A stretch of 64,000 nucleotides of DNA, taken from Prorocentrum cordatum. Lineage: Eukaryota. The translations under genes and the position numbers were made by a program. The stretch is from the NCBI GenBank assembly GCA_963575745.1, contig CAUYUJ010000092.1, forward strand, positions 558,001 to 622,000, in the 5' to 3' direction. Under the pieces are notes generated by a model, which was given only the letters and a program-made list of their open reading frames with translations, ran no database searches and had not been told where the DNA came from. Each line of letters opens with the position of its first letter. Position 1 is the first letter of the stretch. Below are positions 34,101 to 37,100 of this stretch, piece by piece.

Positions 34101-37100
34101 CTCCCCACACATAACAGGAGGTCACTTCGAGACCCACGCGCTACGGGCAGATGCATGTTTCCATGCATGCGCGTGCTGAAGGAGGAGGAAGAGGGAGACG
34201 AGTAAAAGGGGAAGGGGGGAGGAGGAAGAGGAGGAGGAGGAGGAGGAGGAAGGAGGGCTGTGGCGAAAAGAGGGGGGGGAGATATCAGAAGGAGGAGGAG
34301 GAGGAGCAGCAGCAGGAGAGGAGGAGGAGGAGGAGGAGGAGGAGGAGGATCCCAGGGATTCCGCCATCGCGTAGCGATATAATTTACGACAACACACGCT
34401 CCACCTGAGCTTGCCGTAGAAGCCGAGGAACAAGAAAGAAATGCACTTCAACCCGTAGACGGCCGGCTCAAAGAGAAGCCCGTGGAACAACACCGAGATG
34501 ATACGGCGGATGGTTCCCTCCAGACTGACAGCGCCCACAATGCAGAAAACCAAGCAGCATGGCACAAGTTAAGCTGAGATGAGTTCGACTCGGTACGGCC
34601 ATTTATCAAGGAGAGAACACCACTGGTCATCGGGCAACCCACGCTGATCGCCTCGTCCACAGACAGCCTCACCAACAGCCAATACCAAAGGAACACAACA
34701 CAGAAAACGAGCGACGGTGTGTTCACCCCTTCAATACATACGGATGGTACATTAGAAGTTAAAGTTTACTGAATTGAAATAGCTCGCAGACCCACGATCC
34801 ATCGAAAAGGCCGCCGCCCGAGTGGGTCTTAAATGGGCTCGAGGTCCCCGTGCCCCTCGGTTGCGGACGGGTTGCCGAAGAAGAAGAGAGAACCGTGACG
34901 AACACAGCCGCGCTCCGCCGCCCGAGTGGGACTTAGATGGGCTCGAAGCCCCCGTGCCCCTCGGTGCGGACGGGAAGCCGAGGAAGGTGTTCGGGAAAGT
35001 GCGAACATCGAAATACAAAAATGCAATAACCTGAAATCGCCCATTCTTGCCATCCCACACCGGGAACAACTATCTTAAAAACGCTATGGTGGTGGGAGCC
35101 CCCCAAGCGCCACGAGAAGGCAATGGGCTGGGCGTTCCATGGCTAGCTCGAGCCCAACTGGGTACGATGCCTTGGGCCACCCGTGCTTGAGGAGGAGGAG
35201 GATGAGGAGGAGGAGGAGGAGGAGGAGGAGGAGGTGGAGGAGGAGGTGGAGGAGGAGGAGGAGGAGGGGGGCCGGGGGGAAGGAGCCTGGCGCTGGACTA
35301 TGTGGCGCTGGACCAGGGCGCGCTTCTCCTCCGCGCTGAGATGACCGAGGGGGCTCGGGCCCACGGGGAGGTCGCCGCCGCTCGCCAGCCCCTCCGCACG
35401 GAGGGAGGACGGGGGGGGGGGAAGGATGAGAAGGGCGGGGGGAATGAGAAGGAGGAGGAGGAGGAGGAGGAGGAGGAGGAGGAGAAGGGAGGGAGGGAGG
35501 GGGATAAGGAGGAGGGGGGGGAGGGGGGAGGGAGGGGGAGGAGGGGGAGGAGGGCAGCCATGTCGCCGCTGGCGCTCGTGCCCGGCGCGTCGTCGTCGCA
35601 GGAGGCACCCACATCCGCGCACGAGAACTCGATGCCTGTGGGAGGCCATCCGCAAACATTTGGGAACGAGGGAGGTGCGGGAAAAAGAGGGAGAGGAGGA
35701 GGAGGAGGAGGAGGAGGAGGAGGAACGAGGAAGGAGGAAGGGGGAGGAGGAGGAGGAGGAGTGAGCGGTATCGTGTCGCTCCGCTCCGCGGGCCGGGAAG
35801 CTGGGAAAAATTCGGGACGCTGAAGCTCGGGGATTGGAAAGTGGATAGCGTGTCGCGCCGAAGCGTGGTTGGCCAGAACTGGCGGAGCGACACGCTAAGA
35901 CAAAGTTCCTGACCGTAATTACGAGGGAGCACCCCAAGCCTAGCGACATGACGTCCACGTCCACCACGTGCACGGCGCCGCAGCGGTCACAGAAGGCGAA
36001 GTAAGCGTCCTCGTCCGACGCCTCCTGCTGCTCCTCTCCTGCCGCCACCTCTAGGGACCCCGCGTGACAGGCCGCCGCCGCAGCCGCGCCCTCGGGGTTC
36101 TCCTCCAGGTCCTCCTCGTCCTCCGCCTGCTCCTCGTTGCTCTCCTGGTCCTCTTCGTGGTCCTTTTCCTCCTCCTGGTCCTTCTCGTGGTCCTCCGGGC
36201 CGCCGTCCTCCTCCTCCTCCTCCTCCTCCTCCTCCTCCTCCTCCTCCTTTGCGTTCTCCGCGGCCTCCCGGACCTCCTCTGCAGCAGCAACCTGACCATA
36301 GCGATCCTCGTCCCCCTCTGGGTCCTCCCTCTCCTCCTCCTCTTCCTCCTCCCGGGTCTCGTCCACTTCGTGCTCCTCCTCCTCCTCCGCGGCCTCCCTG
36401 TCCTCTGCAGCGCCGGCCTCGCAGTGGAGACCCTGTCTAGAATCATCGTCTGCACGCCGCTCGCGATGACCTGCATGTCCTCTGGGTCCTGGGTGCTCGG
36501 CATCGCCCACGCCTGCACGACGGCCAGCGCTTTCCCCGGGTCCTTGGCACTGCTGCCCGCGTCCTTAGAGGCCTCCCAAATTGGGTCCGAGTAGATAGGA
36601 TCGGGGGAACGCGCCCCGTCGGCGTGGAGAAAATCGTGCTCCACATCGAGCCGCATCGCCGACGCATCGCCGACGCATCGGCGATGTGGCGCGATCCTCC
36701 GACCCCATCTGCTCGGACCCTGTGTGGGAGGCCTGGAGTCCTGCTGCCCCGTGCCCCCAGCTTCCGCGCTCGGGCTGAACAGCGGCACCGCCCGCAGCCG
36801 CGCGGCGACACGCCGCCTCCGGGGCCGCGGCCGCTGCCGCCGCAGAGGGCGCCGCGCCGAGTGCCGCGGGGCCCTCCGCCGAGCCCAAGGCCGAGAGGCC
36901 CCTGCACGGCGGCGCCAGCTCGGCCCCCGGCGGGCCCCGCGAAGGCCTTAGCGTGGGCGCCCACCCCGAGGCCACCGCGCGCGGCTGGCGCGGAGCCGCG
37001 CCGGCGGCAGGCGGCAGGGGCAGCGGGCAGGGGGCGGCCTCTGCCTCCTCCCTCGATGCCCTGGATGCTCAGCGGGCGAAGGGCGGCATAGCATAGACTG

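What the first reader, a model, noticed from the sequence alone, without database searches (positions are those of the whole stretch)
36559..36742. Intron that is exactly a TIR transposon plus one 5-bp TSD (introner-like), using a non-canonical GA donor
Seen (minus strand): exon..cAG|GAC-tccAGGCCTCCCA..GGGTCCGAG.AGAT.GG.TCGG ... CCGATCCTATCTACTCGGACCC..TGGGAGGCCTcta-AG|GAC..exon. The duplicated target AGGAC supplies both the GA donor and the AG acceptor. Removing 36740-36564 (177 nt) therefore restores the pre-insertion sequence and the reading frame between exons 14 and 15. Established: introner elements create introns this way, and dinoflagellates tolerate GA/GC donors. Inference: relaxed donor rules let any TIR element landing on an AG|GA or AG|GC target become a perfect intron without carrying its own splice site.
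Basis: partly seen in the sequence, partly recalled or inferred. Interest (0 to 1): 0.78.

Follow-up and report, generated by a model that had tools for sequence, protein, structure and literature searches.

The report
Small hairpin transposon, intron status unproven
A 170-base mobile DNA element that folds back on itself sits beside an expressed gene segment of a GC-rich marine protist; it could be cut out of the message as a ready-made intron, a mechanism already described in dinoflagellates, but the available RNA data do not show that it is.

Summary
The sequence features are real. A near-palindrome lies at 36569-36734: 56-nt arms, 80% complementary, RNA fold -124 kcal/mol, z -8.9. An exact 5-nt repeat (AGGAC, minus strand) lies 3 nt outside each arm.

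The element belongs to a dispersed family. Evidence: a solo arm at 24357-24409, about 21 translated relatives in public protein sets, and many 90-95% pieces in RNA runs. Ends of other copies suggest the element runs 3 nt past AGGCCT, so AGGAC abuts it like a target-site duplication. Two things weaken that: such a repeat occurs by chance at 1-5% of positions, and an equally rare 9-nt repeat also brackets the element.

That it is an intron is not shown.
- GA..AG is the only register that excises it exactly.
- But 177 nt is a multiple of three and open in frame, so "restoring the frame" proves nothing.
- Raw RNA reads matching at >=99% cover the coding-like downstream flank, fade before the proposed acceptor, and give no listed junction.
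- The proposed upstream exon is barely covered.

Recruiting both splice sites from an AGGH-type duplication, with GA donors, is already published for Polarella.

Verdict: a genuine MITE-like insertion. The exact-intron reading is possible (about 0.2) but unproven. Modest interest.

The parts
36566..36737 (.). MITE-like element, 172 bp as read here: the AGGCCT-ended inverted repeat plus 3 further bases at each end.
   Evidence: Inverted repeat. Ends of other copies keep an outermost T/A 3 nt beyond AGGCCT and differ beyond that (loose ends). The codon next to AGGCCT is Ser (TCN) in 6 of 10 translated copies.
36679..36734 (.). Inverted-repeat arm. It is the 5' arm when read on the minus strand.
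   Evidence: pair I1: 56 nt, 80% complementary; 46 of 59 positions match when the 3 extra bases are included.
36569..36624 (.). Inverted-repeat arm. It is the 3' arm when read on the minus strand.
36652..36684 (.). Three tandem copies of an 11-nt unit in the loop. They form a second, off-centre palindrome (36645-36695).
   Evidence: direct repeats D2/D3, inverted pair I2.
36738..36742 (-). Upstream copy of the 5-nt direct repeat AGGAC, the candidate target-site duplication. The proposed GA donor is at 36740-36739.
36561..36565 (-). Downstream copy of AGGAC. The proposed AG acceptor is at 36565-36564.
36564..36740 (-). It is a hypothesis, not shown.
   Evidence: It is the only one of 6 registers with intron-like ends. 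No junction is listed in the RNA reads.
36405..36563 (-).
   Evidence: GC at codon positions 1/2/3 is 0.6-0.75 / 0.4-0.6 / 0.9-0.95. X23 raw RNA reads cover it with no letter differences listed and the first mate on the + strand.
36741..36749 (.). Upstream copy of a rival 9-nt direct repeat. The other copy is at 36550-36558.
36550..36558 (.). Downstream copy of the rival 9-nt direct repeat.
24357..24409 (+). Solo, degenerate arm of a related copy in the same window.
   Evidence: 44 nt, 77%, E 2e-4. (2 mismatches to the arm motif). Sequence read. No partner arm within 24200-24600.

Best explanation
This is an old copy of a short, non-autonomous DNA transposon with terminal inverted repeats (MITE-like, about 172 bp). 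A transposase made elsewhere would recognise the inverted ends and integrate the element at a staggered cut. Repair of that cut duplicates the target, most likely the 5 bp AGGAC.

The copy lies at the upstream edge of a transcribed, coding-like minus-strand segment (36405-36563). As RNA it would fold into one long hairpin that brings its two ends together.

My most likely reading is that this copy is non-coding DNA in the 5' flank, or in a longer intron, of that transcript. On that reading it is absent from the mature message without use of the GA at 36740.

Shown: the inverted repeats, the family, the flanking repeat and transcription of the flank. Inferred: the transposition mechanism, the 5-bp duplication and the position relative to the gene's real exons.
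For: - Element anatomy and hairpin.
- Solo arm of the same family at 24357-24409.
- All 7 of 7 phmmer hits in 1.84 billion representatives fall on the element-encoded residues (query 63-132). None falls on the downstream exon peptide.
- A profile search gives 26 hits among 6260 candidates: 19 from one EukProt set, 6 ENA, 1 NCBI. About 21 are true element translations. Five of the six ENA hits (P0010, P0011, P0016, P0023, P0026) match only the internal repeat motif.
- In RNA-derived data, 17 of the 24 listed contig pieces lie inside 36616-36734 at 3-5 mismatches per 37-53 nt, with unlike flanks. 55 of the 75 laid X23 reads are only 90-95% alike and lie on both strands.
- Ends of three other copies (TCT before AGGCCT; CTA and CGA after it) keep the outermost T/A and then diverge.
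- Against a junction: X23 depth is 10.8 (36408-36460), 4.6 (36461-36513), 1.6 (36514-36566) and 1.2 (36567-36619), and 0.8 and 0.6 upstream of the element. No junction is listed.
- A 92-nt piece at 37346-37437 is matched without mismatch by contigs of X1 and X5 and ends at an AG|G. It has depth 0 in X23, where the segment beside the element has about 10. The two are therefore probably not parts of one transcript.
Against: - Only about 12% of run X23 was read, and roughly 16 reads carry the whole argument on depth. A junction needs 3 reads to be listed, so absence is weak evidence.
- The downstream flank has a clear coding signature right up to 36563 in the frame that the GA..AG excision would join. 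The 20 codons upstream of 36741 have GC3 0.90 and GC2 0.70 in that same frame.
- The junction AG|GA..AG|G fits published dinoflagellate rules. For P. cordatum these are GA donors 23.8% and AGG acceptors 79.7% (PMC10666404, passages).
- 3 of 10 translated copies have Gln/Glu-Asp-Ser before the terminus. That is compatible with the same AG|GAC junction elsewhere, though their DNA was not seen.
Confidence: 0.5

Rival explanations
1. The element plus one copy of its 5-bp duplication is exactly a spliceosomal intron (36740..36564, GA..AG). Both splice sites are recruited from the duplicated target AG|GAC, so splicing restores the pre-insertion message.
For: - It is the only register of six with intron-like ends.
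- It is phase 0, the commonest phase for such elements in the Polarella preprint (passages).
- Both flanks are coding-like in one frame.
- Element ends 3 nt beyond AGGCCT make AGGAC directly adjacent.
- The hairpin juxtaposes the two sites.
- X23 depth upstream of the element (0.77 and 0.55 in two 53-nt bins, about 70 nt in all) is what a single read stopping at 36738 would give. A split read would lose its match there. This is arithmetic, not an observed read.
Against: - No junction is listed in raw RNA reads. Depth fades before the acceptor and the upstream 'exon' is nearly uncovered.
- The 177 nt are in frame and stop-free, so frame restoration is uninformative.
- The 5-mer repeat has a 1-5% chance level, and a rival 9-nt repeat exists.
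- The arms are only 80% complementary, so this is an old copy, whereas the preprint associates GA donors with recent gains.
- GA tolerance presumes a dinoflagellate host, which is not shown. A 15-nt spliced-leader core gives 0 matches, and the named relatives of the element carry a green-alga label.
Confidence: 0.2
2. An exonised, in-frame insertion. The element landed in a coding exon and is simply translated as 59 extra residues, because it happens to be a multiple of three without stops.
For: Frame 0 is open from 36947 to 36051 through the element. X23 shows depth 1.2 over 36567-36619, outside the part most hit by other copies.
Against: - There is no codon-position signal inside the element (0.60/0.75/0.65, 0.80/0.40/0.75, 0.60/0.60/0.70).
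- Open frames are expected by chance here (0.23).
- The frame upstream of about 36816 is arginine-rich and does not look like coding sequence.
- Depth across the element's ends is far below that of the flank.
Confidence: 0.07
3. The AGGAC repeat is not the target duplication. Either the 9-nt repeat (36550-36558 / 36741-36749) is the duplication of a 182-bp element with ragged ends, or both repeats are local low-complexity host sequence. In either case 'element plus one duplication = intron' fails: 191 nt, frame-shifting.
For: - The 9-nt repeat is as rare by chance as the 5-mer (1.1%).
- The 6 nt outside AGGCCT on one side match 4 of 6 with the outermost 6 nt on the other side, if a 4-nt indel is allowed (read).
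- Asp-Ser or Asp-Cys precedes the terminus in 4 of 10 translated copies, as if GAC belonged to the element.
Against: - Three DNA-level ends of other copies lose similarity right after the 3-nt extension.
- The spacing is asymmetric (6 against 10 nt).
- Excision of 191 nt would join the upstream frame to a downstream frame that lacks the codon-position signal.
Confidence: 0.12

Closest known systems
Introner-like elements of Polarella glacialis, classes 12-14 (Roy et al., bioRxiv 10.1101/2020.10.14.339549; passages, section 5)
   Same: These are DNA-transposon-derived introns in which both splice sites are recruited from the target duplication. Class 14 has a 4-nt AGGH duplication and class 12 a 5-nt NAGGH or NNAGG duplication. 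GA/GC/GT donors are accepted, a G follows the acceptor, and phase 0 is favoured.
   Different: - Here the 5-nt repeat would be used in a third register (AGGHN).
- No splicing of this copy, and no coincidence of other copies with introns, could be shown.
- No sequence comparison with those classes was possible because their supplements are closed.
- The host is unidentified.
Introner elements defined by inverted plus direct repeats in Amoebophrya (PMC7789003, passages) and Prorocentrum cordatum (PMC10666404, passages)
   Same: The geometry fits their operational pattern: inverted repeats at both ends and a 3-5-nt direct repeat over the boundaries within 30 nt of the ends, a predicted hairpin, and a non-GT donor. 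The window's composition (GC about 0.6, repeat-rich) resembles the published P. cordatum figures.
   Different: Their definition starts from RNA-supported introns, and that step is missing here. The arms here (56 nt) are longer than their 8-20 nt.
MITEs (miniature inverted-repeat transposable elements) in general
   Same: Short, without a coding gene of its own, with terminal inverted repeats, a flanking duplication and many dispersed, diverged copies.
   Different: No autonomous partner or superfamily could be assigned. The length of the duplication (5 or 9 bp) is unsettled.
Introners of Aureococcus and Micromonas (named in passages and in the preprint; details recalled)
   Same: Mobile elements that create introns on insertion. 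In Aureococcus they have inverted repeats and a duplication that supplies one splice site.
   Different: Those carry one canonical splice site within the element. Here the element's own AG|GC motifs give only out-of-frame products of 169 or 160 nt.
Nonconventional introns of euglenids (PMC3935182 and PMC4770533; only the search listing and the start of each abstract were seen)
   Same: Variable non-canonical borders and an RNA secondary structure that brings the intron ends together.
   Different: Nothing places this window in a euglenid. This was considered as a lead only and not tested.

Membership tests
Introner / introner-like element | Sequence-similar copies at many unrelated loci | tested here: met
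   - Solo arm at 24357-24409.
- 17 of 24 listed contig pieces and 55 of 75 laid reads match the element at 90-95% with unlike flanks.
- 7 of 7 phmmer hits fall on the element-encoded part.
- About 21 true translated copies.
Introner / introner-like element | Copies coincide with spliceosomal introns, with similarity beginning and ending at the splice sites | not testable with these tools
   No whole genome or annotation is held. DNA of the related copies could not be fetched. The metagenome scan gave only chance hits and the viral scans gave none.
Introner / introner-like element | This copy is removed from the mRNA at the element-defined boundaries | tested here: inconclusive
   no junction 36741|36563 is listed (threshold 3 reads). 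Only about 12% of the raw RNA run was read. Depth is 1.6 at the acceptor side and 0.6-0.8 at the donor side.
Introner / introner-like element | The target-site duplication supplies splice sites (AGGH-type pattern) | tested here: inconclusive
   AGGAC on both sides gives GA..AG|G in exactly one register. However, the chance level is 1-5% and a rival 9-nt repeat exists.
MITE (non-autonomous TIR transposon) | Short, with no transposase of its own | tested here: met
   The element is 172 bp. ORFs through it have 0 Pfam families.
MITE (non-autonomous TIR transposon) | Terminal inverted repeats | tested here: met
MITE (non-autonomous TIR transposon) | Target-site duplication directly flanking the ends | tested here: inconclusive
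   AGGAC is adjacent only if the ends lie 3 nt beyond AGGCCT. That is supported by three other ends and by Ser codons in 6 of 10 copies. The length of the duplication (5 or 9) is unsettled.
MITE (non-autonomous TIR transposon) | Related autonomous element or assignable superfamily | not testable with these tools
   No genome to search.
Introner element as operationally defined in Amoebophrya / P. cordatum | Inverted repeat and 3-5-nt direct repeat within 30 nt of both ends of an RNA-supported intron | tested here: inconclusive
   The repeat geometry is met. The RNA-supported intron is not shown.
Dinoflagellate nuclear gene context (needed for GA donors) | Host is a dinoflagellate: spliced-leader relics, GA/GC donors shown by RNA | tested here: inconclusive
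   - A 15-nt spliced-leader core (recalled motif) gives 0 matches.
- Rfam gives 0 matches.
- One RNA-supported boundary is AG|G.
- Composition resembles published P. cordatum values.
- The element's named relatives are labelled Pyramimonas.

The most novel reading that the evidence does not exclude
The junction is used, so a hairpin MITE with no splice site of its own is removed as a GA..AG intron purely through its duplicated target. In addition, the family is shared between this host and an organism labelled as a prasinophyte green alga. That would mean either horizontal spread of an intron-making MITE between distant algae, or GA-donor splicing of such elements outside dinoflagellates.
Probability: 0.05. 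Interest if true: 0.65.

Novelty: new member of a known kind. Interest (0 to 1): 0.27.

Why it matters
If this copy is spliced, it is one more worked example of how a transposon can become an intron without carrying any splice signal. It would use a register of a 5-nt duplication (AGGHN) that the Polarella study does not list. The principle itself is already published.

The practical value is small. The finding defines a repeat family, with its ends and a candidate target, that could be censused in the source genome to ask how many of its introns arose this way.

Tried and rejected
- Whole-genome search for copies: no genome is held.
None shares more than 24-28 nt with the element by blastn, so all are chance hits in GC-rich contigs. 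A more specific motif would have been the better use of the single scan.
- Viral-contig scans: 0 hits by motif. Three loci by peptide pattern showed no real DNA similarity.
- Genome-contig scan with the alignment: not run, because the alignment lacked a conserved stretch.
- Homologues of the downstream exon peptide: none among proteins of 94-2000 aa, and none in the phmmer search. No orthologue is therefore available to test for absence of the intron.
- Word-indexed search with the element peptide alone: none.
- Pfam on 77 + 5 ORFs: nothing above cut-off. Rfam: 0. Spliced-leader core: 0.
- Sequencing-run search: the best shares were 0.07-0.15. When laid, X1, X18 and X5 held only repeat-like pieces of 53 nt or less, plus one 92-nt piece (X1, X5), and no long stretch of the locus. 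These shares say nothing about habitat or strain.
- Two contig 'joints' (36396/36399 to 36811/36814; sides 21-22 nt, with inserted letters) lie in GAG-rich and GC-rich low complexity. I dismissed them.
- ESM Atlas on the ORF at 9675-11138: gives only a reverse-transcriptase lead, and its taxa are uninformative.
- Earlier findings of this scan: none for this genome or sequence. The 8 shown for 'introner' concern other genomes and did not bear on this one.
- The journal version of the Polarella paper is not held. The Cymbomonas genome (GC 51%, passages) does not resemble the window. A search for 'CCMP1952' found 0 papers.
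Full report
**What is in the sequence**

On the minus strand the region reads: AGGAC, TCC, then an arm beginning AGGCCTCCCA. About 160 nt later comes the complementary arm ending TGGGAGGCCT, then CTA, then AGGAC.
- The repeat finder gives arms 36569-36624 and 36679-36734. They are 56 nt and 80% complementary, with 54 nt between them. This is the longest of 28 inverted pairs in 36400-36900.
- The loop holds three tandem 11-nt units (36652-36684) that form a second, off-centre palindrome.
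- As RNA the stretch folds into one long hairpin of -124 kcal/mol, against -80 +/- 5 for 200 shuffles. The z-score is -8.9 and 0 shuffles fold as well.

**Is it more than chance?**

The arms are clearly non-random. A 22-nt arm motif with up to 3 mismatches has 3 matches in the window against 0.10 expected, and 0 of 100 shuffles reach 3. The terminal motif has 2 matches against 0.06 expected.

The direct repeat is weaker evidence.
- For pairs of positions the same distance apart, outside tandem repeats, an exact 5-mer at equal offsets of 0-5 nt occurs at 1.2% of 39,037 positions. At any offset it occurs at 5.0%, and directly adjacent at 0.25%.
- Without masking the figures are 4.5%, 10.7% and 1.45% of 63,795 positions. 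Tandem repeats make up 24.8% of this window.
- A second exact repeat of 9 nt (36550-36558 and 36741-36749) also brackets the element. A shared 8-mer in the two 20-nt flanks occurs at 1.1% of 37,523 positions.

**It is a repeat family, not a single-copy palindrome**

- Within the window a solo, degenerate arm lies at 24357-24409, with no partner arm nearby.
- I searched 1.84 billion protein representatives with the frame-0 translation of 36947-36405 (181 aa). There were 7 hits at E <= 0.001. All 7 fall on query residues 63-132, the part encoded by the element (residues 70-128). None falls on the downstream exon peptide alone.
- A profile of these hits found 26 proteins among 6260 candidates: 19 from one EukProt set labelled Pyramimonas sp. 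CCMP1952, 6 from ENA assemblies and 1 from NCBI.
- I read all 26. Five of the six ENA hits (P0010, P0011, P0016, P0023, P0026) share only the internal repeat motif. About 21 are short ORFs that read through copies of the element.
- In the laid runs, 17 of the 24 listed contig pieces (76 more were not shown) lie inside 36616-36734. They have 3-5 mismatches per 37-53 nt and unlike flanks. 55 of the 75 raw reads of X23 are only 90-95% alike and lie on both strands over the element.

**Where the element ends**

The recognisable inverted repeat stops at AGGCCT, 3 nt short of each AGGAC. Other copies suggest the element runs those 3 nt further.
- Loose ends show TCT before AGGCCT (contigs of X1 and X18), CTA after it (7 X23 reads, agreement 0.61) and CGA after it (4 X23 reads, agreement 0.57). 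In this copy the two ends are TCC and CTA.
- The outermost base is T (or A on the other strand) in all five ends. The sequence beyond differs in every case.
- In 10 translated copies that read through the terminus, this one included, the adjoining codon is Ser (TCN) in 6. It is Cys, His, Tyr or Pro in one each.
- On this reading AGGAC abuts a 172-bp element (36566-36737) as a 5-bp target-site duplication.

Two facts keep this open.
- The next codon outward is Asp in 4 of 10 copies, preceded by Gln or Glu in 3. That may reflect a preferred or selected AG|GAC target, or it may mean GAC belongs to the element.
- The 9-nt repeat would define a 182-bp element with ragged ends. I could not see DNA of enough copies to decide.

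**Is it an intron?**

- Of the six registers that remove the element plus one AGGAC exactly, only one has intron-like ends: GA at 36740 and AG at 36565-36564, followed by G.
- GA with the element's inner AG (36574-36573) gives 168 nt, also in frame. The element's own GC (36732) gives 169 or 160 nt, out of frame. The GT at 36718 gives 155 or 146 nt, also out of frame (counted).
- The 177 nt are a multiple of three and stop-free in the flanks' frame. At this composition that happens 23% of the time. 'Restoring the frame' is therefore no evidence.
- The downstream flank 36405-36563 looks coding in that frame. GC at codon position 3 is 0.90-0.95 and at position 2 is 0.40-0.60.
- The 20 codons upstream of 36741 show a weak signal in the same frame (0.80/0.70/0.90). 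Further upstream the frame is arginine-rich and unconvincing.
- There is no codon signal inside the element.

**RNA**

The run search returned only small shares, 0.07-0.15. The lay showed why: X1, X18 and X5 hold repeat-like pieces, not the locus.

The raw RNA run X23 is informative.
- About 12% of the run was read, and 16 of the 75 laid reads are >=99% alike.
- No letter differences are listed in 36355-36566.
- Depth with the first mate on the + strand points to minus-strand RNA in the usual stranded libraries. It is 10.8 in 36408-36460, 4.6 in 36461-36513, 1.6 in 36514-36566 and 1.2 in 36567-36619. Upstream of the element it is 0.8 and 0.6.
- The depth of 6.9 in 36355-36407 is unreliable. 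It lies in GAG-rich sequence that the other runs also hit.
- No junction at 36741|36563 is listed, and none of the shown loose ends lies at 36563. However, listing needs 3 reads, and 71 loose ends were not shown.

If the two proposed exons were joined, depth should not fade towards 36563, and the upstream exon should be covered like the downstream one. With about 16 reads this is a lean, not a proof.

The roughly 70 nt of upstream depth would fit one read that stops at 36738, where a split read would lose its match. That is arithmetic on the table, not an observed read.

A 92-nt piece at 37346-37437 is matched without mismatch by contigs of X1 and X5. It ends at an AG|G. It has depth 0 in X23, so it is probably not part of the same transcript.

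**Host and splice rules**

- For: the composition (GC about 0.6), the repeat load, the mostly minus-strand coding-like segments and one AG|G boundary. These fit published figures for Prorocentrum cordatum: GC 59.7%, GA donors 23.8%, AGG acceptors 79.7%, and introns enriched in elements with inverted and direct repeats (PMC10666404, passages).
- Against, or open: no spliced-leader relic, no Rfam hit, and no conserved gene to place the window. The element's only named relatives carry a green-alga label.
- I leave the host open. Without a dinoflagellate-type spliceosome a GA donor would be unlikely.

**Comparison with what is known**

In Polarella glacialis, class 14 elements recruit both splice sites from a 4-nt AGGH duplication. 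Class 12 has a 5-nt duplication (NAGGH or NNAGG). GA donors are commoner in recently gained introns (bioRxiv 10.1101/2020.10.14.339549; passages, section 5).

Amoebophrya and P. cordatum introns with end inverted repeats and 3-5-nt direct repeats have been described as introner elements (PMC7789003, passages; PMC10666404). Transposons with inverted ends are the main source of introners across eukaryotes (PMC12130899, passages; PMC9860276, listing only).

At most, this locus adds a family and a third register (AGGHN) of a 5-nt duplication.

**Verdict**

The object is a genuine MITE-like insertion with a probable 5-bp duplication, confidence about 0.8 for the transposon itself.
- My best reading is that this copy lies in the flank or a longer intron of the neighbouring transcript (0.5).
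- The exact GA..AG intron remains possible (0.2).
- Translation through the element is unlikely (0.07).
- A different or no duplication is possible (0.12).

What would settle it is listed under next steps. None of those steps could be run here. The single lay and run search were used, no genome is held, and supplements of the preprint are closed.

Noticed in passing
window 37346-37437 (minus strand): A 92-nt piece is matched with 0 mismatches by short contigs of runs X1 and X5. The match ends at an AG|G at 37438-37436, as at a 3' splice site. At its other end the match is cut off by the masked (CCT)n repeat. Raw run X23 has depth 0 here.
   Followed up: partly
whole window; e.g. 29061-29544, 30086-30636, 38915-39494, 47317-48209: Tandem repeats make up 24.8% of the window. 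They include trinucleotide arrays of 480-890 bp ((CTA)n, (GAT)n, (TCC)n) and a 111-nt satellite at 31660-32478.
   Followed up: no
window 9675-11138 (+): A 488-aa open frame has a reverse-transcriptase look, including an AYPDDVYVAG stretch. It has no Pfam hit at E <= 0.01. The ESM Atlas's nearest clusters carry RVT_1 in 27-52% of members. It is probably a decayed retroelement.
   Followed up: partly
window 44441-45385 (-) and 63354-63998 (-): Open frames with a Cys-X2-Cys-X4-His-X4-Cys knuckle-like stretch and a Cys/His-rich tail, as in gag proteins and retroelement C-termini. Neither has a Pfam hit.
   Followed up: no
window 14516-15766 and 17492-19456 (+): The two stretches share long, near-identical translated segments. 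This is a dispersed or segmental repeat of unknown nature.
   Followed up: no
window 21674-21867, 50739-50881, 54367-54547: Three further hairpin-like inverted-repeat pairs (arms 39-48 nt, 79-89% identical), unrelated in sequence to the element studied. I saw no obvious symmetric flanking repeat for the first. The others were not examined.
   Followed up: no
proteins P0001-P0024 (EukProt set) versus window: All 19 named relatives of the element come from one data set labelled as a prasinophyte green alga, with protein numbers above 450,000. The window's statistics look like those published for a dinoflagellate. A label problem, contamination, shared ancestry or horizontal transfer are all open.
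   Followed up: partly
proteins P0010, P0011, P0016, P0023, P0026, P0027 (ENA contigs): Less GC-rich contigs encode many tandem copies of a peptide motif (RRCIGDASAMHRR-like). It matches only the element's internal 11-nt repeat region. A related short satellite seems to exist on its own in other organisms.
   Followed up: no
window 36405-36355 (minus strand): The coding-like frame of 36405-36563 and the Glu-rich frame further downstream (36400-35990) differ by one base. X23 depth is still 6.9 in 36355-36407, the bin below 36405. That bin is GAG-rich, the other runs also hit it, and everything below 36356 is masked, so coverage across the shift could not be judged. Possible causes are an undetected small intron, an assembly indel, or only one of the two frames being coding.
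   Followed up: no
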